From: Octopus vulgaris
Lineage: Eukaryota
DNA length: 64,000 nucleotides
Direction: 5' to 3'
Assembly: GCA_951406725.2 (NCBI GenBank)
Contig: OX597821.1
Span: 54,994,001 to 55,058,000 of the forward strand
The stretch's first letter is position 1. Every line of letters begins with the position of its first letter. Made by a program: the position numbers and the translations under genes. The notes below the pieces were generated by a model. The model was not told the origin of the DNA, did not search any database, and saw only the letters and a program-made list of their open reading frames with translations. Shown one piece after another: positions 221 to 60,440 of the stretch.

Positions 221-1935
221 TCAACACCTTAGATATAAATTATTCCTGCATGCTAACAATACCAAACCTTTCTCTTAATTATTACAACTATTCTATCAAT
301 TCTATTATACAATTCAGTAAATTAATTATAATTTGGTCTTACATTAGTAATAGATAATATAGTAGACCATATCAAGACATTCTACATCCTTGATCAATAT
401 AATTGAATAATTCCCTACATTGATAGCCATAAATTCTCGCCTTCATGATAGATAATGTATTAGACCATATTCAGTTATTCTGCTATTTGTGAAAAAGCAT
501 ATTATTCATTGATGCTAACACCTTAAATACAAATCATTCCTATATGCTAATTATGCATATAGGAAAGCTAGGAGTAGGAGGAAAAGTTGGTACATGGATA
601 CATGAGTTCCTTACAAATAGAACTCAAACAGTCACTGTGAATGGAACCCATTCAACACCATCACCTGTGACCAGCAGTGTTCCTCAGGGTACAGTACTCG
701 GCCCAATCCTGTTTCTCATCCTCATCTCTGACATAGATGAAGATACAACCAGCAACGTCTCATCCTTTGCTGATGACACCAGGGTCATGAGACAAATCAA
801 AGACGAGGTGGATACAGAGGCCTTACAAAAGGACCTGACCAGCATATATAAATGGCAGGAAACAAACAACATGTTCAATGATAAGAAGTTTGAACTAATT
901 CGCTACGGAACAGATCAAGATCTGAAAAATACAACAAACTACAGAAACCCATCAGGACAACAAATAATGGAAAAACAGTATGTGAAAGATTTAGGCATCC
1001 ACATGGGAACCAGCCTAAAATTCAGAGAACACCTTGACTCAGTCTGTCTTACTGCAAGAAAGTACAGCGGGTGGATCTTGCGCACCTTCAAATCAAGAGA
1101 TACCTCAACAATGAAAACCCTCTGGAACAGTATGATACTTCCGAGGAATGACTACTGTTCTCAGTTGTGGTCACCAACAACAAAGGGCCAACTATCTAAG
1201 ATGGAATCGCTCCAAAGAAATTTTACCTCATACTTCTCAGAAACGAGGGACCTGGACTATTGGCAAAGACTCAAAACCTTGAAGATGTACTCAATAGAAA
1301 GAAGATTTGAGCGATATCGAATTATATACATTTGGAAAATGATAGAGCAAAAGGTGCCAAACTTTGGTATCAAAACCTACCACTCACTGCGCCACGAAAG
1401 ACGCTGCCAGCTACCACCAAACAACAAAAAGGCTGGCCAGGCAGCAAAAACCCTGCGAGAGTCAAGTCTGTTGGTTCGAGGAGCACAACTATTCAACTCC
1501 ATTCCGGTACATGTCAGAAATCTATCAGGATGCAGTGTGGAATCATTCAAATTGCAGCTGGATAGATACTTATGCACCATTAGAGATGAACTCCATCTCC
1601 CAGGATATACACAACGAGCACAAACTGACTCAAACTTGCTCCTACACATGTCAAAATTAAACAGAGAATACAACCTGGCAACCACACCAGACTCTGAGGG
1701 TGGAGTCTTCGACTTGGCCTGAGAATGGACTCAAATGAAATGGAAATGAAATGAAATGCCTTACTTTACACTTAATTGTTAAACCTACACTGATAAACTT
1801 TATAACTAAGATCAATACAAATTAATAATTCCCAACAATAATTATGATTAACCATAATTTGGTCTCATAATTTGACCATAGTCAGTCATTCTATTATTTG
1901 TAAAAATACTTTTATCCATTGATGGATAACATTCC
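221..1935. repeat. Degenerate ~300-bp tandem repeat, second unit split by a LINE insertion
   Basis: AACACCTTAGATATAAATTATTCC (223) recurs as AACACCTTAAATACAAATCATTCC (518); ATAATTTGGTCT occurs at ~328 and ~1854; GACCATA...ATTTGT...CATTGATG occurs at ~463 and ~1874. Confidence 0.6.
544..1722 (+). mobile_element. 5'-truncated non-LTR retrotransposon (CR1/L2/Jockey group): reverse transcriptase C-terminal half and thumb
   Basis: Open frame with VPQGTVLGPILF, SFADDT (catalytic xADD), KDLGI, DYCSQLWSP, GAQLFNSIP, FKLQLDRYL; followed by a short 3' UTR and (GAAAT)n tail at ~1733-1757; no endonuclease domain, so truncated. Confidence 0.92.
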
Positions 1936-4030: not shown

Positions 4031-4054
4031 TTTTGATTTTATATATATATATAT

Positions 4055-4435
4055 ATAAAATATGAATTAGAGATATAACCACTATTATGCAACTCAAACA
4101 GTGATAGACATAAACCAAAACATAAATAATAAATATAATATATTTTTATAAAACATATAACTAGATCTCAAAAGGTATAAAAATGATTAATCAATATATT
4201 ACTTATTACTTATTATATATTGATTATTCATTTTTATGCTTTTGAGATCTAGTCATATGTTTTATAAAAATATATTCTATTTGTTATTTATGTTTTGGTT
4301 TATGTCTATCACTGTTTGCGTTGCATAATAGTGGTTTTATCTCTAATTTATATTTTATAAATTTATATTGTGAAATTTGATTTAATACTAAATTGAATTT
4401 TCCCCTGTAAGTTTCGAGTTACACCCCCTAATATA
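4055..4435. mobile_element. Palindromic (inverted-duplicated) PLE-like terminal fragment in (TA)n
   Basis: Arms 4055-4200 and 4212-4360 are reverse complements (ACCACTATTATGCAAC / GTTGCATAATAGTGGT); the right arm continues to ...TACACCCCCTAATA-(TA)n, which resembles 37025-37080 in reverse. Confidence 0.7.
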
Positions 4436-11635: not shown

Positions 11636-11828
11636 ACACATATATACATATATGTATACTCAAACAGGTGAGCACATAAAGGCAAAACAAAGTGGGAAAA
11701 ATAGTACTCCAATACTGAAAGTAGAGTAATATACTTTTATTAAAGCTGCAAAATCTTCACAAACTGTAGTTCCCACTCATCACTGTGTGGTGATCATAAC
11801 TGATCATATACATACATACATACATACA

Positions 11829-11864
<36 letters not shown>

Positions 11865-12350
11865 CATATATATATATATACATATATACATATATATATA
11901 TATACATACATAAATATTATTTTTTTTCTTTCGAAAATGATTTTTTTTACTCTATTGTTTGGAAGTGCTCAGGTTGAAACCAAGACGTTAGATATTATAT
12001 ATCTTGGATTAAGAAGAGACAAAAATTTAGATAATCATTCCATAGTTATGATTTACATCAACATAAAAAATACATATGACATAAAATTACATCAAGACAA
12101 GGAACATATCTATATATTATTTAGAATAGAAACAAGAGCTATATGAGGTAAAAATATACATGAAAAGGATAAATAAATGTTGATATATCGATTAAAAATC
12201 ATATTAGATTTAAGCTTAAAAAATGTTGAATTAAGGATTAAAATTTGTAAGATACATTGGCAGTTGTGAGAAATCAAAATGATGGATTTAAAAGTTTAGA
12301 AGAGTTCCGAAGAAATGTTTGTAGAGAGTTATAACATCATATATGAAGCA

Positions 12351-12435
12351 ATTCGACGGCTGTTTCTGGAATTCATTAGTCAACAAGGTATGAATCCTTT
12401 AGTTTCACACTGACAATGTCCCCTTCATCAGGAAC
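12351..12435 (-). ncRNA. Type I hammerhead ribozyme, extended stem II
   Basis: Minus strand: GTTC-CTGATGA-AGGGGACATTGTCAG...TTGACTAATGAATTCCA-GAAAC-AGCC-GTC-GAAT; all core nucleotides present; stem I GTTC/GAAT. Confidence 0.8.
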
Positions 12436-12596
12436 AAGTAAATAGATAATTAATTAAGTTTGAAGAAATGTAAGAGAAAAGAAAATTGTAGGTTACATTA
12501 TGTTATTCATTGGCTACTCTGTCTGATACTGACTACTTTTACAATGATTCACACTTATATACGAAAGGAAATTTCTAGTGTAGGATGATGGGAGAA

Positions 12597-13160
12597 TTAA
12601 AAAAAATTATAGCATCTATAAATAAGAACAAAATCAATTATCAAACTTTCAAAACCTTTAACACTGATAGGAAATCAAGTATAAATAATATAAGTATATC
12701 CAAAACACCTAATTTATATAATTCAGCATCAAATAGTAACTCTAATTTGTCAGTAGCCTTCAATGATGGAAATCCACCCACAAATATATAGATAATAGCA
12801 ACAATAAATTGGGAAAAACATGTAGGTATAGAAAAATCAATTTATGCTTGCTTGAAGGATTATGCCCCCGTAAAAATGTAGTATATAAATGTACAGTAGT
12901 ATCAGTTAAGTATCAGGCGAGAACTTACTTGGGTAGTACTGCTGAATTAAGAAAAAAAGATATAGAATACATTTAAATTCATTTACTAACATTAGATATA
13001 AAAATCCTACCACTCTGGCCTCATATATACGTAATTTAAGGAATAAGATCATTAATTATAAAATTTCTTGGTCTATACTAGCAAACGCCCTCCCTTATAA
13101 TGCTATAAGTAACAAATGTAATTTATGTATTAGAGAATCATACATTATTCTCAAATCATA
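12597..13160 (+). pseudogene. PLE linker and GIY-YIG endonuclease relic
   Basis: Read across frameshifts: LKKIIASINKNKI-(N-rich)-KTCRYRKINLCLLEGLC..NVVYKCTVVSVKYQARTYLGST..RYRIHLNSFTNIRYKNPTTLASYIRNLRNKIINYKISWSILANALPYNAISNKCNLCIRESYIIL. Confidence 0.85.
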
Positions 13161-13483
13161 AAATTCGGACACATTGAATAAATTCTCTGAATCATTCATG
13201 TACTCATAAATTTCACTCATCTTTCAAGGAACTCTATAAGAATGAAGAATTTTGCAGCCTTGATTCTTCCTCTATAAGTAATAAATTATTTCCTGAATTT
13301 ATTGAAAAATCATTTTTTTTTTTAAATTCTCCCCTCATCCTACACTAGAAATTTCCTTTTGTATATAAGCGTGAATCATTGTAAAAGTGGTCAGTATCTG
13401 AAAGAGTAGCCAATGAATAACATAATGTAACCTAAAATTTTCTTTTCTCTTACATATCTTCAAACTTAATTATCTATTTACTT

Positions 13484-13567
13484 GTTCCTGATGAAGGTGA
13501 ATTGTCAGTGTGAAACTAAAGAATTCATACCTTGTTGACTAATGAACTCCAGAAATAGCTGTCGAAT
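13484..13567 (+). ncRNA. Type I hammerhead ribozyme, extended stem II
   Basis: GTTC-CTGATGA(13488-94)-AGG...TCCA-GAAAT-AGCT-GTC(13561-63)-GAAT; inverted partner of 12351-12435. Confidence 0.78.
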
Positions 13568-13926
13568 TGCTTCATATATGATGTTATAACCCTCTATAAA
13601 CATTTCTTCGGAACTCTTCTAAACTTTTAAATCCATCACTAGGATTTCTCACAACTACCAATGTATCTTACAACTTTTAATCCTCAATTCAACGTTTTTA
13701 AGCTTAAATCTAATATGATTTTTAATCGATATATCAACCTTAATTTAGTTATCCTTTACACGTATATTTTTACTTCATATAACTCTTATTTCTATTCTAA
13801 ATAATATATAGATATGTTCCTTGTCTTGATGTAAATTTATGTTATATATATTTATTATGTTGATGTAAATCATAGCTATAGAATGATAATCTAAATTTTT
13901 GTCTCTTCTTTAACCAAGTTGTATAA

Positions 13927-14506
13927 TCATCATCATCATCGTTTAGCGTCCGCTTTCAATGCTAGCATGGGTTGGATAGTTCAACTGGGGTCTGGGAGGC
14001 CAGAAGGCTGCACCAGGCCCAGTCTAATCTTGCAATGTTTCTACAGCTGGATGCCCTTCCTAACGCCAACCACTCCGTGAGTGTAGTGGGTGCTTTTACG
14101 TGCCACCGGCACAGGTGCCAGATGAGCTGGCAAACGGCCATGATCGGATGGTGCTTTTAGCATGCCACCGGCACGGGGGCATGGCGAGGCTGGCAACAGC
14201 CACGATCAGATGGTGCTTTTTACGTGCCACCGGCATGAGGCCAGTCGGGGTGGCGCTGGCAATGGCCACATTCAGATGGTTCTCTTACGTACCACCGGCA
14301 CTGGTATCACAGCTGCAATCTCTATTGATGTTGATCGATTTCGATTTTGATTTTCACTTACCTCAACAGGTCTTCACAAGTAGAGTTTTGTGTCCCAAGA
14401 AGGAAAGGTATGCATAAGTGGACCGGCTACATCCCAGGTAGAGGCCATGGGTTATGGTCTCACTTGTCCTGCTGGGTCTTCTCACACACAGCATACTTCC
14501 AAAGGT
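13927..14506 (-). mobile_element. SINE family C, long copy with four internal ~60-bp subrepeats
   Basis: (CAT)n-CGTTTAGCGTCCGCTTTC...GGATGCCCTTCCTAACGCC; GGTGCTTTTACGTGCCACCGGCAC-like units at ~14088, 14150, 14212, 14278. Confidence 0.85.
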
Positions 14507-14549
14507 CTCATATATATATACATATATACATACATATATATATACATAT

Positions 14550-14612
<63 letters not shown>

Positions 14613-14622
14613 CATACATGCA

Positions 14623-14657
<35 letters not shown>

Positions 14658-14835
14658 GTATACTGTAACATCATTGTTGTGATATCTATGTGCACATGCA
14701 TACACATGAATGCTGGAATGAATATTATAACCTATGTAGATGTTACCATGTGCTAAACTTAACACAACCTTTTATCACTTGTAGCTATAATTTCTTGATT
14801 AAGTACATGCTATGAGAATTGATAGGAAACCGATT

Positions 14836-17730: not shown

Positions 17731-18277
17731 AGTGGAATGGTAAAATGCAGGCTATATATGTTTCCTAGCTAACTGATCCTCTGATGTAATTATTACATAA
17801 TTACTCAGTGAGAATTACTCAGCTAGCTACACATCATGCTGAAGATGCCTTAATCATATGAAGATTACATTGCCCTTTGGGAATTCCAAGCGACAATTTA
17901 ACCTTTATTTAATTAGACTGTTTTAGGCCCGACGATTAGCTAAGTTGACTACCTCTCATTGAGTAAGTATTACATCAGAGGATCAGCTAGCTAAAAAGCA
18001 TATGTATCTGCTATTTAACCTGCTCCATTCCCCCAATTTGTGTTTTTATTGCATTTTTAGCAACTCTAGTTGCTAACTATGGGCTATACAGTAACTTTCA
18101 CCCTATGGAATTTCTTTCTAACTTCGATTTGGGAGAAAGAGTGTGACTTTCAACACCAATAAATTGTTTTTGTTCCTGACTATATACTGCCTACTTTGTT
18201 TTCTATATCTGCATGGACTGCTTGAAGCTTGCTAACCTCCTACAGCTTGATCCCCAGATCTTACCTTTGTACATTCA
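17727..18277 (+). mobile_element. (TA)n-flanked PLE-like fragment with inverted 5' arm and decayed HHRs
   Basis: 17728-17830 is the reverse complement of ~17930-18033; plus copy AGGC-CCGACGA-TTAGCT...AGCTAA-AAAGC-ATAT-GTA; minus copy AGCTAG-GAAAC-ATAT-ATA-GCCT; 3' part homologous to 34990-35220. Confidence 0.72.
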
Positions 18278-18385: not shown

Positions 18386-18447
18386 ACTGGAAAAAGTATA
18401 TATATACTAGCATTGAGAATCATTTCCTATTGCCAACTGGTGGTTGT

Positions 18448-18492
18448 CACGTGCTGATGATGAGTCAATACCCAGAAACTCGGGTCCGTGTG
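18448..18492 (+). ncRNA. Compact type I hammerhead ribozyme with intact core
   Basis: CACGTG-CTGATGA-TGAGT-CAAT-ACCCA-GAAAC-TCGG-GTC-CGTGTG; stem I 6 bp (2 G-U), stem II 4 of 5 paired, stem III AC/GT; lies in a (TA)n-bounded segment (~18380-18660). Confidence 0.8.
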
Positions 18493-19027
18493 CATCATAT
18501 CAGGCTGGAGATGGGCATGATGACTTCCCTTTGCAAATACTGATAGGGCACAAATAGTGTGTCAATAGCCAGCTGGAGGAGAGGTTTTTGTGGGGGCACA
18601 AGCTACAGTATCATCAAGCCTTAAGGGTTAGCCACATTTAGGTGGCAAATATACTTCACGATATATATATGAATATTTGTATTTTTGTTTATTATATAGA
18701 CAGTGCTGTGAAGTGCTCAGGTAGACAACCTGAGAGGATAGACATATATATTACATTCAAAAGGAGAATTCAGGTATGTTCAACAATTTAGAATAATGAT
18801 ATGACATATACTCAGCCATAAAACCAATGTATGCAAATTATTAAAATATATCTAAAATATTTGAAAAATATTAAAAATTTACTGATACATAAATATATAA
18901 AATTATAATAGACATATATGGGTAGAAAAACTCTATTGATGTATAAAAATATATTAACATCTTAAAAGGTATACACTGAAGACAATCATCCTACTTACAA
19001 CAGATTAAGACCACTGTTAAAAAGATA

Positions 19028-19424
19028 TTTACTCTTTTACTTGTTTCAGTCATTTGACTGGGGCCATGCTGGAGCACCACCTTTAGTCGAGCAAATCGAC
19101 CCCTGGACTTATTCTTTGTAAGTCTAGTACTTATTCTATCGGACTCTTTTGCTGAACTGCTTAGTTACATGGACATAAACAGACTGCCACTGGTTGTCAA
19201 GCGAAGTTGGGGGGACAAACACAAACACATAAACACACACACACACACATACATATATACATATATACGACGGGCTTCTTTCGGTTTCTGTCTACCTAAT
19301 CCACTCACAAGGCTTTGGTCGGCTCAAGGCTATAGTAGAAGACACTTGCCCAAGATGCCACGCAGTGGGACTGAACCTGGGACCATGTGGTTGGTAAGCA
19401 AGCTACTTACCACACAGCCACTCC
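19028..19424 (-). mobile_element. SINE family A, full length, nested in PLE
   Basis: Reverse complement of 14836-15233. Confidence 0.92.
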
Positions 19425-19960
19425 AAACAATATTACAAAGTAGAAGAGTAAATCCTCATGATAAGGTGAATAAAGAAATGTTTTAGCATACAGATGGAAA
19501 GTAAAGTTTCCAATGATTAGATGGTGGTACACCAATTTCAAGAATTAAGTGTTGATACTGCAGTGGCTGTTTCAAGGGTACAGTAATCGATGCAAATAAA
19601 GGATATTCCTATCCAAATTTTAGACACTGCCTCCTTCATCGGGGAGAATGTGTTGGTTAAGAATTCACATTTCATATATTGCCATAAAAAATAAATGGGT
19701 CTTTGGTTTTATAAAGAGCTATATGTTAATACATATAGCAGGAAGTGGAAATATTACAGCAAGAATTGTGGGAAGTAAATTTAGAAAATATGGTAGATTA
19801 TTAGCAAGTAATTATTAATGAAGAACAAGGTGAGAGGGATGCGAATATAAATGTTAATCTAATAATAGAGGTTAATGATCAATTTATCCAGATTGATCAA
19901 AATGCTCAAATGTTGAATGGTATCCATGGTAACAAGAGTACATAGCATCAGAAAACTTAT

Positions 19961-20285
19961 TCAATAATGTAGAGTTATATTGACTGAGAATGTATTTAGG
20001 TTCTGTAATACATGGTTTACATAACACGTAATTGTATTATATGGAGGGGCTTCTGCTATTATAGACCAAAATAATGAATATTGTATATTCTTTAGCTTTA
20101 GTTCATGTATATATGTGGCTAGCGTTGTTGCGAATTTATATTTTAAGTTAGTAAAAGAATTCAAATAAGCCCTACAATGATGCTTAAAATCAATATTACT
20201 TCCTATGTAAACCCTATGTGTGGCAGGTATCTCTAGGATCCAGCAAGTGGGCATGAGTCTGGGATGCGACAATTACATGTTTTTC
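19961..20285 (-). pseudogene. PLE GIY-YIG endonuclease relic
   Basis: KTCNCRIPDSCPLAG / (deletion) / HRVYIGSNIDFKHHCRAYLNSFTNLKYKFATTLATYIHELKLKNIQYSLFWSIIAEAPPYN; aligns by eye with 12810-13160. Confidence 0.82.
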
Positions 20286-20691
20286 TTCATGTTTCAGCAA
20301 CAATCTTCCATTTAACTGAGGTCAGAGCATCCTATTCTTGGTGGATAATTATATATTCCAGTATAATTCCAGAATGATTAACTATTCCAGTATTTATATT
20401 TTAAGCATGGTACTTACTCTATCGATTGCTTTTGTTGAACCACTTAGTCACAGAGACATAAACAAACCAAGTGGTGGTGAGGACAAACACAGGCACAGAG
20501 ACACATACACATGGGTACGTACATGACAAACGCCTTTCAGTTTCCAGCTTTGGTCAGCCCAGGGTTATGGTGAGGGTCAGGAACAGCAGCAAACTTTCTA
20601 CTACACAGTTACACACAGATACACATGTATACATACACACATACACTCATACAAACACACACACACGTTATATATATATATATATATATAG

Positions 20692-21958: not shown

Positions 21959-22607
21959 TATTCCATCATTTGTTGTTGCTTAGTGCTAGGTCAGTTCCAA
22001 TCTTGTGAACTGTGATGACCACCCATGTCTTTTTACAAACCAGGATCAACATTATTCAATGCATCCTTCTTTATTCAGTACTCTAGTGTGTGATTTAAGG
22101 GACATCTTGTTGCTATGTCTACCAGATCAATCAAAGTACTGTCTACTAAATGACATGTAAGTAACTATTTTGACTTCAATAAAAGTTGACAATATCTGTG
22201 TTTTCTCACTAAACTCAGACTAATATCTATTATAAATATTTGCCACAATAATTAGAATATATTTATTTTTGTCATTATTTCTGATTAACTTTAATGTTCA
22301 CTGCATTAATCATGGTTAAACTCCAGCTTAAATATTGTTTCTCATTCAGATGACATCTTTGAATAATTTATTCTCTTAATTTCACTTTATAATTTATGCC
22401 TACTTCCATTCATTACTTTACTTCACTGATTCTCTCATTATTACTTCAGTGAAGTACAGTGCACTCTATATTTCATGGAGGAACTTTAATAAAACCAAAA
22501 CATGCATATTTTGATTCAAATGATATTTCTGATTCAGCTAATATGATCTTTTCCTCACCATATAAATATTTCTAATTAATATTTAATTTAATATGTTAAT
22601 ATTCTTT

Positions 22608-23050
22608 TCTATTCTAGGCACAAGGCCCGAAATTTTGGAGGAGAGAGCCAGTTGATTAGATCAACCTCAGTCACAACTGGTACCTAATTTATCAACCCCA
22701 AAAGAATGAAAAGCAAAGTCGACCTTGGCAGAATTTGAACTCAGAACGTAAAGACATGAAATACCGCTTAGCACTTTGCCCAGCAGGATAATGTTTCTGC
22801 CTGCTCGCTGCCTTATAAAATATTTTAGCTAAGAGTGGCAAGTGGGCAAAATTGTTAGTACATGAGGAAAAATACTTCACAGCATTCCTTCTGGCATGAT
22901 GTTCTGAGTTCAGATTCTGCTGAGGTCGACATTGCTTTTCACCCTTTCAGGGTTGATAAAATAAGTATCAGTTGAGTACTATGGTCGATCTAATCAACTA
23001 CAACCCCACCCCACTGAAATTGCTGTCCTTCTGCCAAAATTTGAAACCAA
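22608..23050. mobile_element. Two SINE family B copies head-to-head (22608-22814 minus, 22835-23050 plus)
   Basis: GAATTTGAACTCAGAACG versus GTTCTGAGTTCAGATTC. Confidence 0.85.
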
Positions 23051-24699
23051 CATTAACTTAACTATTGTTTATTAGATGTAGTCTAAGAAATATGTGAAAT
23101 ATTATTGACCTGTTAACTGTCACATACTACCAGTTTCCACTTCCTGTATATTTGATTTGGTCAATCTTAACACTAGCATCAACAATGCATAAATATATTC
23201 TCTACATTTAGATTTTCTTTACAATATTTGATGGTGTGTTTTGCCTGCTGCTTTATTTCTATTGACTTTGTTGTTGTTGTTAGTATACTATATCCTTTTT
23301 TTTCCCACTCTTTAGTCAAAGAATGAAGGGCACTGCTCTTGTTTCTGCCCCTGACCACTTATATTTTCAGATCCCCCAAAACTGGTAGGAGAAAGTTATT
23401 GCTAAACCAGAGACTTAGAATGAATGCTTACTACAAAAGCATGACCTCTGCTAAAGGTAGCTAACGAACAGGTTAGAAGTGTTAAACCAAATGAGAGATT
23501 ACCTAAGAATCATTCATCTAGTTAGATTATATACCCAAAACTAAGAATGCAAAAAAGACACCAGAACAAATACTCTAAGGTATCCCATCCAATGTGCAAA
23601 CAACGTCACCTGTCCACAACTGTGGAATGGTAAAGTGTGCAATTTTGATAATTTCCAAAATGACAAGAAGCAAAGTCAGTGTCTGTGGGATTTGAACTCA
23701 GATTGCAGAGAGGTAAAACAAAAACTACAAGACAGTTTGTCTTGTGCCCTGAAATTTCAGTTAATTTGCCATTCATATACAGCTAAGTTACAGATTTGAA
23801 AGTAGACATTTTAGATTTCAATGTGGCCTATCATAACAATAAACAGTATGCTATATTCTACATTAGCTTACTTCTGTATATTTGTTTTTCTAACGTATTT
23901 TATATAGTTAACCAACCAATGAGCTAAGATTAGACATATGTAAAGATGTTTTTTCAGCTTGTTTTATCCATTTGCAACATAGCAGAAAGGTTGTTAAATA
24001 ATGTTAGGAATATTGAATAAAGTTATCTAAATAACTTTCAGTTGACTTAACTAACTCTAGTATAAGTTTAGTGATATTTCCTTGAAACATTTCATACACA
24101 TATGTTCAGATCTTTCATCAGCTTCAGTAATTACTCAAACTTCAATTTTGGTTTTTTTCTTCTTTCAGGTGAGGAGAAATATACATTAACAGCTGTCTGT
24201 GCTGAAACAATCCTATCTATTCAATACTACAAATGTAACCACTTTATGCTGTCATTGGTATGATAGCTTTACATGTGAATTGATATAATATCAATTGTTT
24301 CATAGATGCCTGTTATAGAGTGTAACAATTGTATATGTCAGTATTGTTCGACTAGAAATGCCAACGAATATGGTTTGCAATATATTAGCTAGATTACATA
24401 TCTCAGCAAAAAAATCCAACTATCAACTGGGAAAATCTGTTCAGCAGTGATTTTCAATCACTTTAAAATATTAATAGATATTTTTTGGAAAGGTGTGAAA
24501 CTGTAATTAAATTTGTCGAAACAAATTGTTTTTGATTTGTGAGTGTATGTTTACAAGGTATCCTTTTATTTATTAGTCAGAATATCCTTGACATTTTATC
24601 AGGATCTTTGAAACTAGTAAGAGGAAAGAAGAAAGTTATCCTGCACTTAATGACCAGACCCTAAATGCTTCATAAACCTAACAATGGTGTTAAACAAGT

Positions 24700-35222: not shown

Positions 35223-35311
35223 CATACACACACACACGACAGGCTTCTTTCAGTTTCCGTCTACCAAATCCACTCCTCACAAAGCTTTATATATATATAT
35301 ATATATATATA

Positions 35312-36597
35312 CGAGTGGTGTTCAATAAGTAATGCCCCTGACCCACTTCCCATAGCAGTAGAGCAACGAAACTTGGCACAGTTATTAGTCTTTTTCTACA
35401 TAGGAACCACCCAGAGTTACGCATTTCTCCCATTGTTTCATGCAGCGCTGGAGACCGTTTTTGTAGAAGACCCCAGCTTGGTCCTCCAACCACGACGTGA
35501 CTTTAGAAATCAAGGCTGCATCATCTGTGAAATGCTTTCCTTTCAAAAACAACTTCATAGCTGGGAAGAGGTGAAAATAAGAGGGTGCAAGGTCAGGAGA
35601 GTAGGGAGATGGGGGAGGAGTTCATAGCAGCACGCCTGTGCTTCTGATCTGGCGAGTTGTGGACCGGAGCGTTGTCCTGCAGAAGGAGGATGCCTTTGCT
35701 GATCTTGCCCCGCCTCTTGATTTTGATAGCTTCCCTTAATTTCCTCAAAAGTGAAGCATAATAGGCTCCTGTAATTGTGGTACCCTTTGCCAGGAAATCT
35801 GCCATCACTACTCTGTCCTGGTCCCAGAAGACTGTGAGCATGACCTTGCCAGCGGAGGGCTGCACCCTTGCCTTCTTTGGAGGAGGTGAGTCACGGTGCT
35901 TCCACTGCATTGACTGGGCTTTGGTCTCTGAATCATAGTGATGGACCCAGGTTTCATCCTGTGTAATCAGTCTTTTGAAAAATTTTGACTCCTCTTCTTG
36001 GCACATCTCCAAATTCACCCTCGAGCAAGTCGACGCGTTCTTGCTTCTGGAAAGGCGTGAGCAACCTGGGAATCCATCTGGCAGACACCTTTTGCATATG
36101 CAAATGGTCATGAATGATAGTTTCCACAGACCCGGTACTAATCTTGACCTCATGGGCTATTTGGCGAATAATTATGCGTCGATCTTCCAAAATGGCAGCC
36201 TCAACTTGACGGACAGATGCCTCATCAATGGCAGAAGGGGGGGTGACCAGATCTGGGAGCTGTTTCCACAGAGTTCCGACAATGTTTGAATTCACGATGC
36301 CAGCGTTTTACAAGGTCATATGATGGGGCATCATCACCATAAGTTACTTTCATTTCATCAAAAGTCTCCTGTGGTGTGCGTCCTTTCAAATACAAAAACC
36401 GGATCACTGCTCGACACTCAACAGGCTCCATTTCACACTTGACTCGGTTCAAACACCTGTAAATCAGAAACCACAATTAGCTCAGAGCTGTAATTTGCCA
36501 CTTAATCTGTAGAGATATCAATAATTGCACATGCAAAATTGCAGCTAGATCAAATAACTGCAAGTGGGTCAGAGGCATTACTATTGAACGTCCCTCG
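35312..36597 (-). mobile_element. Full-length mariner (Tc1/mariner, DD34D type) transposon, inactive
   Basis: TIRs CGAGTGGTGTTCAATAAGTAATGCCCCTGACCCACTT / AAGTGGGTCAGAGGCATTACTATTGAACGTCCCTCG; TA flanks within (TA)n; ~1.29 kb. Confidence 0.95.
35385..36431 (-). pseudogene. Mariner transposase, frameshifted
   Basis: MEPVECRAVIRFL..., ARWIPRLL, ITQDETWVHHY, LLQDNAPVH, PYSPDLAPSYFHLF, WEKCVTLGGSYVEKD*; at least three frameshifts. Confidence 0.93.
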
Positions 36598-36624
<27 letters not shown>

Positions 36625-48125: not shown

Positions 48126-48660
48126 TGTATTTATGTATGTATGTGTGCATGTATGTGTGTATGTATGTGTGTGTTTGTATGCATGTATGTATATATGCAC
48201 AGAGAGAGAAGGAGGGAGAGAGTTAATGATGCAAATAAAGAAATAAACACACTCAGGCTTGATATATAAAATATACATATTGAGAGAGAGAAAGAGAGAG
48301 AGTGAGAGAGAGAGAGAGAGAGAAACTGAAAATATCCAAATGAACATTTGTATACAATTATGTAGATATTTATATATTTTCAAGAAAGTATTACATGGAG
48401 TACAAAAGATACAAAAAAATTGAGGTGAGGGCACGGTATATAAATATTACCATAAACCTAACCTCCACCGTGAAGGCAGAGGCTGGATTTATATATATAT
48501 ATATATATAAGTTTAGCAAAAACTTAGATTCAGATGAGTATGGTATTTAGGTTAAAGGCACCACAATTTGGTATGGTATTATTCATATAAATCAAATGGG
48601 TGATTATAAACAAAATAAGCAACAAGGATATTCATCCTTGCAACAAGAAATCATCCCCCC

Positions 48661-49020
48661 AGTTGTAATTGTAGAATTAGATCAAGGTGTCCGGTATCTG
48701 GTTGGTGTCTAGTCCAAAACCTAATTTATAAATGTGCAGTAATGACTTCAAATAATAGCTATTTTTATTTTGGATGTTCGATAGATCTGAAAAACGCTTA
48801 AACAATCATTTATGTAGTTTTAGACTTAAACATAAGGTGGGTTGCACAATGATGTCTAGTAAAATTTGGGAATTGAAAGGAAAAAATATCGAGTTTAACA
48901 TAAAATTGGATATAATAAGGAAGGCACAGCCTTATAAAAATAGTAGAGATGGATGTGAACTTTGTTCTATGGAGTATATGAAATTTTGAAACATCGGAAT
49001 AATATAAACTTCTTGAATAA
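48661..49020 (+). pseudogene. PLE GIY-YIG endonuclease relic
   Basis: SCNCRIRSRCPVSGWCLVQNLIYKCAVMTSNNSYFYFGCSIDL /fs/ KRLNNHLCSFRLKHKVGCTMMSSKIWELKGKNIEFNIKLDIIRKAQPYKNSRDGCELCSMEY. Confidence 0.88.
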
Positions 49021-49491
49021 CCGTTTTGATCTAGGCGTATCCTGCGCACATTGTGTCACCTGTACTTTTAAGTATTTTAAATAATAGCATTCTGACTATT
49101 CCTAAATTTTCAAATCTTAATGTTTTGTAACAAAATAAGGAAATAATATACTATTCTAGTTTTTATTTAACCTGCGTAGATTATTAAGAAATTTAATAAT
49201 ATAAATAAATTGAATAAGGTGAAATAAAATCTTTTTAAACTTTTCTATATAGGATTGCATAAATTCCATATATTTAGTGAAATTATTAAGTTCATCTTGA
49301 TTACCTCCCTTCCATTACACTTTAAAACATTTTAGAGGCTCTTGATATATGTGATAATTGCTAAGTTTTTTTTTTATGCAGGAAATAAAAAATATGTCTA
49401 GCATATTCCTTTAATTTAACTCATTAATACAAATAAATTACTATTTACTAACTAACTATAAATCTATATTAATAATAATCTGATATAAATC

Positions 49492-51680: not shown

Positions 51681-52585
51681 AGGAAGACTTATCAGTCACA
51701 GCAGAATTGGTACTGGTGCTGGTGTCATGTAAAAAGCACTGACAGGTCTGTCCCAGAGTAAGAAAGAAGTATGCAAATATATGCATGCACTTACAGCAAA
51801 ATGAAAATAAAATAAAATAAAACTTATGCAGACATACAGTCATGCATGCATGGCTATGTTTCTGCATAAGTTTTCTTTTATCTTATTTTTATTCTGTTGT
51901 AATTGCATGCATATATTTGCATAATTTTTTTAATACTTTATGACAAACATTTCCATAGGCATCAGTTCCCAAGCTGTCTGTTCTAAGTTTTTAAACTTTG
52001 TTTTATATTGCATTTAGTGAACAGTAGTGGTGTTGGTTATAGGTTTATAACCGACCAATCTCTGTTTTACTGCATTTCTTTTAATGAGGGGTGCATGTTT
52101 AACTCAAACTTGATGCAGTTACATGCATGTACATTATTGATAACAAGCATGTGAAAAGGTACTCAATACCAGGGGTAGAGTATAGATAATTCCATTACAT
52201 CAGCTGAAACCAACTGGCTGAAACTAAAAGTTTCCATAACCATCTGATTTATTATCAGCCATTTTGGATTATACATATATAAGATTATTTTTAACAGTTT
52301 TTATTTACTAAATTCCATTCACAAGCTATTGGTCAACTCTAAACAACTATAGGAGACTAGACTCTTGTCACCTACACCACATGTATGGTATGTGACACAT
52401 GGTGGTGAAGTGAACTTTCAAACAACACAATCGTACTTGGGCCATCCCCTCATAGACTTTTTTCCAACATTTACTTTTCCAGTATCAATAGCCTAAATTT
52501 GTATTTTACCTCATTTAACCCCTTTTCTAACAACTTCATTCCTTACATTTATAATATTGAGAAAAATATTTAAAGTTGGTAGATA

Positions 52586-56351: not shown

Positions 56352-56600
56352 ATTATTTTTATTTCACTCATCTTTAAAAGCAGAAAGCTACAAACTGTTT
56401 TGTTTACAGGTAATGTAAACATCACATCACTCTTTTGCTCATACAGTGTCATGTAAAGACATGGTATGTAAAGTCATGCAAAATGTTCTGTGTCTTTGCA
56501 TGACACTGTCTGAACAAAACAGTGACGTCATGTTTACATGTCCTTTAAACAATACATTTTGTAGCTCTTTGCTTTCAGTGATGAGTGGGATAAAAAACAA
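56352..56600. mobile_element. Foldback/MITE-like palindrome
   Basis: ~110-bp arms: TTTTTATTTCACTCATC...CAGTGTCATGTAAAGACA versus TGTCTTTGCATGACACTG...GATGAGTGGGATAAAAA; the ORF track shows homologous peptides on both strands. Confidence 0.8.
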
Positions 56601-59984: not shown

Positions 59985-60440
59985 TACTTGTGCACGTGGC
60001 ACATAAAAAGCACTATTTGAGTGTGGCTGTTGCCTGACTGGCCCTCATGCTGATGGCACATAAAAGCACCCACTACACTCTCGGACTGGTTGGCATTAGG
60101 AAGAGAATCCAGCTGCAGAAACTCTGCCAGTTCAGATTGGAGTCTGGTGCAGCCATCTGGTTGGCCAGACCTCAGTTAAATCATCCAACCCATGCCAACA
60201 TGGAAAGCGGACATTAAACAATTATGATGATGATACATATATCATCATCATCATTTAACATCCACTTTCCATGCCAGCATGGGTTGGATGGTTTGACAGG
60301 ATCTGTTAAACTAGAGAACTGCCCCAGGCTCCAATTGTCTGTTTTAGCATAGTTTCTATGGCCAGATGCCATTCCTAATGCCAACCACTTTACAGAGTTT
60401 ACTGGGTGCTTTTTATGGGATTTCAGCATGGGTGCTTTTT
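59985..60440. mobile_element. Two SINE family C copies tail-to-tail
   Basis: Plus copy ends CCAACCCATGCCAACATGGAAAGCGGACATTAAA..(GAT)n; minus copy begins (CAT)n-TTAACATCCACTTTCCATGCCAGCATGGGTTGG. Confidence 0.88.

What the first reader, a model, noticed from the sequence alone, without database searches (positions are those of the whole stretch)
11950..13926. Penelope-like insertion that mimics a TIR element: GIY-YIG core between ~600-bp inverted arms, one ribozyme per arm
Seen: 11960-12597 is the reverse complement of 13325-13926. The centre encodes a Cys-rich linker plus a decayed GIY-YIG (VVYKC...TYLG...CNLC), with no RT. The two HHRs face outward on opposite strands. Known: PLEs often integrate 5'-truncated with an inverted terminal-repeat copy. 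Inference: a transcript from either strand would carry one sense HHR and could fold into a ~600-bp hairpin. It is either a truncation product or a self-contained endonuclease-plus-ribozyme unit.
Basis: partly seen in the sequence, partly recalled or inferred. Interest (0 to 1): 0.75.

Follow-up and report, generated by a model that had tools for sequence, protein, structure and literature searches.

The report
Dead Hydra-clade Penelope copy, inverted arms
This is a decayed, 5'-truncated Penelope-like retrotransposon of the known Hydra group whose ribozyme-bearing 3' end was duplicated in reverse orientation, an arrangement already described for these elements, so it is ordinary rather than a new kind of mobile unit.

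Summary
The arms are 11994-12606 and 13317-13927, 91.9% identical. Each carries an outward-facing type I hammerhead motif; the stem II is long, and the working GAAA is at 13552 (+) and 12366 (-). The centre is a frameshifted GIY-YIG endonuclease with no RT.

Its relatives are ~705-aa RT-EN proteins with the motifs published for the Hydra clade. The forward copy seems to start mid-ORF, at the end of the RT thumb, on a shared A-run (weak signal). The left arm has ~76 extra bp that match the 3' end of a second, arm-less Hydra copy in the window, then an (AT)/(ATAC) microsatellite. So the arms are PLE 3' UTRs, not TIRs.

The same layout, including one hammerhead per strand, is listed for Penelope-13_HM. 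Damage to the endonuclease fits neutral decay. In read-through RNA from either strand the antisense arm comes first and is predicted to pair with the ribozyme, so hairpin and ribozyme exclude each other.

Best reading: a dead one-off insertion product (0.80). An amplifying endonuclease-plus-ribozyme unit is not excluded (0.06), because the genome-wide junction test could not be run.

The parts
11808..11912 (.). (ATAC)n/(AT)n microsatellite at the outer end of the left arm; likely target site
   Evidence: TRF; Hydra families are listed with (TA)n preference (PMC8557442)
11918..11993 (-). Unpaired 3'-terminal extension of the inverted arm (~76 bp, outer limit approximate), with a decayed terminal hairpin ending in GAGCACT (11981-11964)
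   Evidence: Aligns to the 3' end of the second Hydra copy (18742-18671, -): 49 of 72 columns, 0 of 1000 shuffles as high. No counterpart found in 13928-14720 (158 of 500 shuffles as high)
11994..12606 (-). Left arm: inverted copy of the element's 3' UTR (pLTR)
   Evidence: 91.9% identical to 13317-13927; differences spread evenly, 7,8,6,8,10,7,4 per 100 columns, last bin partial
12351..12435 (-). Type I hammerhead motif: core 12431, GAAA 12366, cleavage base 12355; long stem II; core bases intact, one mismatch in stem III
12597..12606 (+). Inner junction: A-run that can be read as arm or as ORF (L-K-K); inferred microhomology
   Evidence: the best RT-thumb-end profile site in 12590-12815 starts at 12597
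12607..12788 (+). Stop-free, Asn-rich frame (22% N); probably the end of the RT thumb plus an RT-EN linker
   Evidence: Position-specific test: 5 of 1000 shuffles as high, score 5.2 against 19-37 for true blocks. Whole-frame tests not significant: 114 of 500 and 10 of 100 shuffles
12791..12949 (+). Cys linker (C-x-C-x5-C with the second Cys changed to Tyr, 12821) and N-half of GIY-YIG (VVY 12878, TYLG 12923)
   Evidence: Profile positions 554-607, iE 6e-7; BLASTP E 7e-7 to relative P0220
12946..13206 (+). C-half of GIY-YIG in another frame: R..H 12958, CNLC 13117, E 13135, stop 13159, N near 13177; CxH end decayed
   Evidence: Profile positions 608-688, iE 6e-21; 1392 library hits at E<=0.001
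13207..13316 (+). Proximal 3' UTR not copied into the left arm, ending in a T-run that overlaps the arm boundary
13317..13927 (+). Right arm: the forward copy's own 3' UTR (pLTR), lacking the last ~76 bp
13484..13567 (+). Type I hammerhead motif: core 13488, GAAA 13552, cleavage base 13563; C15.2 changed to U (U-G pair)
13926..14300 (.). Unrelated dispersed repeat starting with (TCA)n that abuts the right arm (right limit not defined)
   Evidence: Other copies in the window, e.g. 16010 (91%), 17307 (87%), 32861 (92%), 60234 (77%)

Best explanation
A dead, 5'-truncated insertion of a Hydra-clade Penelope-like retrotransposon. (1, inferred) An autonomous RT-EN element was reverse-transcribed from its 3' end at an AT microsatellite. 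(2, weakly shown) The forward cDNA stopped at the end of the RT thumb, keeping only linker, endonuclease and 3' UTR. (3, shown as structure, inferred as event) A second copy of the 3' ~690 bp was laid down in reverse and joined head-to-head on a shared A-run, so both 3' ends and both hammerheads face outward. The likelier route (about 0.6 of this case) is priming from nicks on both target strands; the other (about 0.4) is fold-back of the cDNA end onto its own A-run. (4, shown as damage, inferred as neutral) Afterwards the copy decayed, and a dispersed repeat came to abut the right end. Today it makes no nuclease. Any read-through RNA would form a long imperfect hairpin that sequesters the ribozyme.
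For: Hydra motifs in 71 full-length relatives: DKT/S 70, RWK/R 64, YRDD 70, CxCx5CP 68, CxxC..E 71, CCHH Cys pair 0, matching the text and Fig. S7 of PMC8557442. A model of relative P0087 matches I-TevI at Z 9.9, rmsd 2.2, 89 residues aligned. The same layout is published: Penelope-13_HM has a 5'-truncated inverted copy at its 5' end and a hammerhead on each strand; general statements. The left arm's outer end matches the 3' end of an arm-less relative. The breakpoint scores best as the RT-thumb end. The arms differ by 4 indel events over 2 x ~610 bp (counted by eye), which predicts about 2 frameshifts in the ~600-bp centre; 2-3 are seen (my inference). A purified PLE protein cuts and extends both target strands (PMC11167929).
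Against: No family consensus or sister copy above ~70% identity was available, so truncation point and microhomology are inferred. The thumb-end score is low and two broader tests were not significant. The linker would be ~65 aa against 13-49 aa in 98 of 120 relatives. All 3 Hydra remnants in the window are EN-only. No TSD was found. Pfam found no RT domain in 7 full-length relatives tested, so their RT label rests on motifs compared by eye with Fig. S7.
Confidence: 0.8

Rival explanations
1. The same parts, but not made in one event: a second copy of the family inserted head-to-head at the first, or a later inverted duplication copied the 3' end.
For: 7% arm divergence could predate joining; without a consensus the two arms cannot be dated apart. 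PMC11167929 proposes nicking within the element's own pLTR.
Against: The layout is reported as frequent for PLE insertions. Differences are even along the arms, and EN damage fits the arm divergence.
Confidence: 0.11
2. A non-autonomous, amplifying endonuclease-plus-two-ribozyme unit, moved in trans by a Hydra RT, with an EN-only ORF started from an ATG supplied by the inverted arm.
For: An ATG at 12585, also present at the matching place in the other arm, is in frame with the stop-free stretch to 12788. 3 of 3 Hydra remnants in the window have EN but no RT. pLTR-flanked movement in trans is reported in rotifers (PMC3846280).
Against: The EN is frameshifted and has stops. The breakpoint looks mid-ORF. 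The ribozyme stems have probability <=0.03 alone and are predicted to be sequestered in context. The other two remnants have no inverted arm, and the junction occurs once in the window, though 64 kb is a weak test.
Confidence: 0.06
3. A DNA transposon or foldback element with long TIRs that captured a PLE endonuclease fragment.
For: Long inverted arms around a decayed core; other fold-back repeats occur in the window.
Against: The arms carry the hammerhead in the EN's own sense and end like the 3' end of an arm-less Hydra copy. The ends are asymmetric, no TSD was found, and no transposase-like frame was seen in the six-frame translation.
Confidence: 0.02
4. Assembly artefact (fold-back read or misjoin).
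For: PMC8557442 notes that such structures trouble assemblies.
Against: The arms differ at 40 substitutions and 10 gap columns spread evenly; an artefact would give near-identical arms.
Confidence: 0.01

Closest known systems
Hydra clade of C-terminal EN+ PLEs (Craig et al. 2021, PMC8557442), especially Penelope-13_HM
   Same: CxCX5C-type linker, no CCHH, CxxC before the conserved E, hammerhead in the 3' UTR, AT microsatellite target. Penelope-13_HM is listed with a 5'-truncated inverted copy at its 5' end and hammerheads on strands 0 and 1.
   Different: Here no RT is left, the EN is broken, and the hammerhead stem II region is ~55 nt, longer than in any Hydra row that I read in File S2 (part 2).
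Hydra-1_Obim (Octopus bimaculoides, same paper)
   Same: Same clade motifs; mollusc example of the clade.
   Different: By eye, a different EN linker sequence, hammerhead and 3' end: not the same family. No computed comparison was made.
Penelope of Drosophila virilis and Adineta vaga Pen2/Pen5/Pen6
   Same: 5'-truncated copies flanked by inverted pLTRs, an optional 3' tail at one end, and Asn-rich inserts between RT and EN.
   Different: Other clades: Penelope/Poseidon lacks the Cys linker and has CCHH. No palindrome is seen at this junction. The extension here is ~76 bp, not 30-40 bp.
Non-LTR retrozymes (bioRxiv 10.64898/2026.07.22.740005)
   Same: Type I hammerheads derived from PLE pLTRs, non-autonomous.
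   Different: Retrozymes are non-coding tandem arrays with same-strand ribozymes; here the two ribozymes are on opposite strands around an EN remnant.

Membership tests
PLE (EN+) | GIY-YIG endonuclease | tested here: met
   Family profile hits; a relative's model matches I-TevI Z 9.9 and T4 EndoII Z 8.6 (Foldseek only E 0.19); Pfam GIY-YIG weak, below cut-off, in 5 of 49 relatives scanned out of 150 and 0 of 4 window pieces; Atlas neighbours named GIY-YIG
PLE (EN+) | PLE-type RT in the same ORF | tested here: inconclusive
   No RT core in this copy, as expected after 5' truncation; weak thumb-end signal at the junction; RT motifs present in the full-length relatives
PLE (EN+) | Hammerhead in the pLTR | tested here: met
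   Descriptor calls in both arms, 1 of 5000 shuffles; no Rfam hit; cleavage activity untested
PLE (EN+) | Direct or inverted pLTR, optional 3' tail at one end | tested here: met
   Inverted arms; ~76-bp one-sided extension, which may partly reflect loss at the right end
Hydra clade | CxCX5C linker | tested here: met
   C-R-Y-x5-C spacing at 12821, second Cys changed to Tyr; 68 of 71 relatives
Hydra clade | No CCHH motif in the EN | tested here: met
   Only one Cys between VVY and TYLG in the window piece; Cys pair in 0 of 71 relatives
Hydra clade | CxxC before the conserved E | tested here: met
   CNLC..E at 13117-13137; 71 of 71 relatives
Hydra clade | CxH after the conserved N | tested here: inconclusive
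   A C-T-H lies in another frame, but alignment with the second copy reads those bases as M-Y-S; intact C-Y-H in the second copy; C 70 and H 71 of 71 relatives
Hydra clade | DKT and RWK motifs, RT phylogeny | not testable with these tools
   Region missing from this copy. DKT/S in 70 and RWK/R in 64 of 71 relatives. No tree with named clade references was built.
Hydra clade | (TA)n insertion preference | tested here: inconclusive
   Left end abuts (AT)/(ATAC)n and the second copy ends at a short AT run, but TRF finds 88 short tandem repeats in the window and the right end is obscured
Neptune / Nematis / Naiad / Penelope-Poseidon | CCHH motif (plus CX2-5CxxC linker, or N-terminal EN in Naiad) | tested here: not met
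   0 of 71 relatives for either pattern; EN is C-terminal in the relatives
TIR DNA transposon / MITE | Symmetric termini, TSD, transposase | tested here: not met
   Ends asymmetric, arms are PLE 3' UTR; no TSD of 7 bp or more other than microsatellite, with the right end obscured
Non-LTR retrozyme | Tandem non-coding units with same-strand hammerheads | tested here: not met
   Two inverted units around a coding remnant

The most novel reading that the evidence does not exclude
This copy belongs to a RT-less Hydra derivative that amplifies as a unit: inverted pLTRs supply the cis signals on both strands, the inverted arm donates an in-frame ATG (12585) to an endonuclease-only ORF of about 210 codons, and an RT in trans copies it. 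That would be an endonuclease-donating, ribozyme-flanked non-autonomous retroelement, a state between PLEs and retrozymes. The window's 3 of 3 EN-only Hydra remnants are the one hint in its favour.
Probability: 0.06. Interest if true: 0.65.

Novelty: new member of a known kind. Interest (0 to 1): 0.22.

Why it matters
As it stands, little: one more decayed Hydra-clade PLE, of a family that I did not recognise among the six new Hydra consensus sequences of PMC8557442 (compared by eye; Repbase sequences were not seen). Two small points are useful. First, a long-stem-II hammerhead is shared with a second family in the window and is missed by Rfam. Second, a 3'-terminal hairpin ending in GAGCACT is shared by both window families and visible at the ends of several published Hydra consensus sequences; it is a candidate for the RT-initiation stem-loop (inference by analogy with PMC11167929). 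A clean head-to-head junction with no palindrome is also a usable case for telling two-strand priming from fold-back. If the unit proved to amplify, it would be a new type of non-autonomous retroelement.

Tried and rejected
Rfam: no hammerhead. Pfam on window pieces: no GIY-YIG. Word-index search with the 71-aa piece among longer proteins: 0 of 8 candidates. PDB sequence search with the family profile: 0 hits. Foldseek: nothing at E<=0.001, although the top six rows are GIY-YIG nucleases.

The short hammerhead reading with the first GAAAC (13512) was dropped: it gives no stem II, stem III or cleavage triplet under the descriptor. The Asn-rich frame as RT homolog: not significant by whole-profile or pairwise tests; only the fixed-block test gave a signal, and it gave none for the other two copies (184 and 958 of 1000 shuffles). 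The missing right-hand 3' end was not found beyond the abutting repeat, and no TSD was found. The proximal 3' UTR of the second copy does not align better than shuffles (156 and 72 of 200). Stem II covariation: 26 of 26 cells pair and one pair is compensatory, but 164 of 500 shuffles do as well with only 3 sequences. No A-to-G bias between the arms. L1-style twin priming (recalled, no call) was set aside because it inverts a non-overlapping segment, whereas here the 3' end is duplicated.

Not run: the bacterial/archaeal genome, phage and plasmid collections, as irrelevant to an animal element. Metagenome and viral contigs stayed unchecked. The host genome was not available (only window.fa). 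The host species was not tested.

Full report
1. Observation. The window is AT-rich, microsatellite-rich eukaryotic DNA. It looks like an octopus-type genome to me, but that is recalled and was not tested. The inverted repeat is real: 11994-12606 against 13927-13317, 91.9% identity over 617 columns, with 22 transitions, 18 transversions and 10 gap columns, K2P 0.069. Differences are spread evenly, which argues against an assembly fold-back.

2. The centre. Stop-free pieces lie at 12579-12788, 12767-12973 and 12946-13158. Pfam sees no GIY-YIG in them (0 of 4 EN-region pieces of the window). The 71-aa piece finds 1392 proteins at E<=0.001, 20 of them at E<=1e-10; the best 150 were returned. An alignment of 21 of these plus three window pieces found 228 longer proteins, of which 120 were returned and 71 are at least 660 aa. 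These 71 carry DKT/S (70), RWK/R (64), YRDD (70), CxCx5CP (68) and CxxC..E (71), and none has the CCHH Cys pair; the terminal C and H are conserved in 70 and 71. This is the description of the Hydra clade in PMC8557442 (section 11; Fig. S7 read). Their profile matches the centre at positions 554-607 (12791-12949, iE 6e-7) and 608-688 (12949-13191, iE 6e-21), and nothing before position 509 matches anywhere in the window. A model of relative P0087, not of the window's own sequence (pLDDT 84.9, 118 sequences), aligns to I-TevI at Z 9.9, rmsd 2.2 over 89 residues, and to T4 EndoII at Z 8.6; Foldseek ranks the same proteins first but only at E 0.19. Pfam GIY-YIG appears weakly, below cut-off, in 5 of 49 short relatives scanned and 1 of 7 long ones, and Pfam finds no RT domain in those 7. 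The RT label of the relatives therefore rests on motifs. The window's EN keeps the two Tyr, Gly, Arg, His, Glu and Asn positions, but is frameshifted between TYLG and the Arg and has stops at 13159 and 13207. It cannot make a nuclease.

3. Where the forward copy begins. The frame 12597-12788 has no stop and is 22% Asn (chance about 0.006 for 60 codons in a given frame at this composition). Whole-frame tests for RT homology failed (114 of 500 and 10 of 100 shuffles as high). A 13-residue profile of the RT-thumb end, built from 67 distinct blocks found in 98 of 120 relatives, scores best exactly at 12597, with 5 of 1000 shuffles as high, but at 5.2 against 19-37 for true blocks. I read this as a mid-ORF breakpoint followed by a long Asn-rich linker (about 65 aa against 13-49 in relatives; Asn-rich inserts are reported in rotifer PLEs, PMC3846280 passages). 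It is suggestive, not shown. The first codons of that block fall in the A-run that also ends the arm, so a short microhomology is inferred.

4. The ribozymes. CUGAUGA lies at 13488 (+) and 12431 (-). The nearby GAAAC is a decoy. The motif closes at GAAA 13552/12366 after a stem II region of about 55 nt, followed by a short near-palindromic stem III, GUC, and a 4-bp stem I. My descriptor, written after seeing this, gives 3 calls on both strands of the window and 1 in 5000 shuffled arms (core only: 21 in 5000). The related copy at 19642-19573 (-) has a damaged motif with the same long stem II: 26 of 26 cells pair, with one compensatory change, which is not significant for three sequences (164 of 500). 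Rfam finds nothing. The hammerhead fold is not favoured even in isolation (stem probabilities at most 0.03). Metazoan PLE hammerheads are reported to be weak, dimer-dependent or protein-assisted (PMC4209133 passages; PMC11167929 part 2). On either strand the antisense arm is transcribed before the sense ribozyme, and in the MFE of 12300-13620, 73 of 76 and 73 of 77 ribozyme bases pair with the other arm. This is a folding prediction, not an assay.

5. The ends. The left arm runs about 76 bp beyond the paired region, to an (ATAC)/(AT) microsatellite at 11808-11912. That extension aligns with the 3' end of the second Hydra copy (0 of 1000 shuffles), and the distal left arm aligns with that copy's distal 3' UTR (0 of 200; mononucleotide shuffles). 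The proximal UTR does not align better than chance. The second copy has no inverted arm, so the arm is a PLE 3' end and not a TIR. The right arm stops at a dispersed (TCA)n-headed repeat. The missing 76 bp and a TSD were not found. Whether the one-sided extension is the known PLE tail or a later loss cannot be told.

6. How it arose. Shown: forward EN plus 3' UTR, an inverted second 3' UTR joined head-to-head, and decay. Inferred: formation in one insertion, either by priming from both nicked strands (a purified PLE protein cuts and extends both, PMC11167929 part 1) or by fold-back of the cDNA onto its own A-run (self-priming is proposed in PMC3846280, but with junction palindromes, which are not seen here). 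Four indel events between the arms (by eye) predict about two frameshifts in the centre; two to three are seen, so the EN was probably intact on arrival and has not been kept since.

7. What is known. PMC8557442 states that an inverted 5'-truncated copy often flanks PLEs and that a tail is often present at one end. Its File S1 and S2 list Penelope-13_HM, a Hydra member, with such a copy and a hammerhead on each strand, and Hydra-1_Obim from octopus. Inverted terminal repeats are the commonest form in D. virilis (PMC2377424 passages) and are mentioned in a curation guide (PMC8969392 passages). I saw no report of an amplifying EN-only PLE with inverted hammerhead arms in six searches (listings only, apart from the papers named here). 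The library lacks most subscription journals.

What I read: PMC8557442, passages, section 11, two supplement searches and supplement parts 2, 52, 53, 57, 58 and 59 of 59; PMC11167929, parts 1-2 of 4; bioRxiv 10.64898/2026.07.22.740005, part 1 of 5 and passages (its supplements were not seen and may list further families); PMC3846280, PMC4209133, PMC13282606, PMC2377424 and PMC8969392, passages only.

8. Verdict. A real feature and a known architecture: a new but dead member of the Hydra clade. Interest 0.22. The decisive test for the bolder reading, genome-wide recurrence of the junction, could not be run because only the window was available. In the window the junction occurs once, and the two other EN remnants are too distant (69.5% nucleotide identity for the closer one) to test it. 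That all three lack RT is the one observation that keeps the unit hypothesis alive (0.06).

Noticed in passing
window 18670-20400 (-): Second Hydra-type copy: EN at about 19900-20300, damaged long-stem-II hammerhead at 19642-19573, 3' end near 18670, interrupted by a ~400-bp dispersed repeat at 19028-19426; no inverted arm.
   Followed up: yes
window 48643-49050 (+): Third Hydra-type EN remnant with an intact CNC-x5-CP linker, frameshifted, starting ~130 bp after a (TA)n run; no hammerhead call after it.
   Followed up: partly
window 11981-11964 (-) and 18734-18712 (-): 3'-terminal hairpin ending in GAGCACT. [quoted passage not shown] 'Hairpin' and 'stem-loop' do not occur in that paper's main text. 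Candidate RT-initiation signal. The 7-mer alone occurs 10 times in the window.
   Followed up: partly
window 18446-18494 (+): A separate compact type I hammerhead (core 18454, cleavage base 18486, 6-bp stem I, 4-bp stem III) with no EN beside it, facing the 3' end of the second Hydra copy.
   Followed up: no
window 12585-12590 (+): ATG in the inverted arm in frame with the stop-free Asn-rich stretch; also present at the matching place of the right arm.
   Followed up: partly
window 493-1722 (+): 409-codon open frame with RVT_1 (E 1.3e-9), probably a LINE remnant.
   Followed up: no
window 35288-36621 (-): Mariner-type transposase remnant (Transposase_1, E 1.8e-23) between ~61-bp inverted repeats at 35288-35348 and 36562-36621.
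   Followed up: no
window 4045-4368, 17739-18020, 22592-23060, 51763-51930, 56356-56596, 60046-60430: Other fold-back or inverted repeats; 4045-4368 is a near-palindrome at 91%.
   Followed up: no
window 13926, 15524, 16010, 17307, 32861, 33446, 60234, 60241; and 14834, 19028, 21575, 41989, 52584, 55500, 61438: Two abundant SINE-like repeat families, one starting with (TCA)n; not classified.
   Followed up: no
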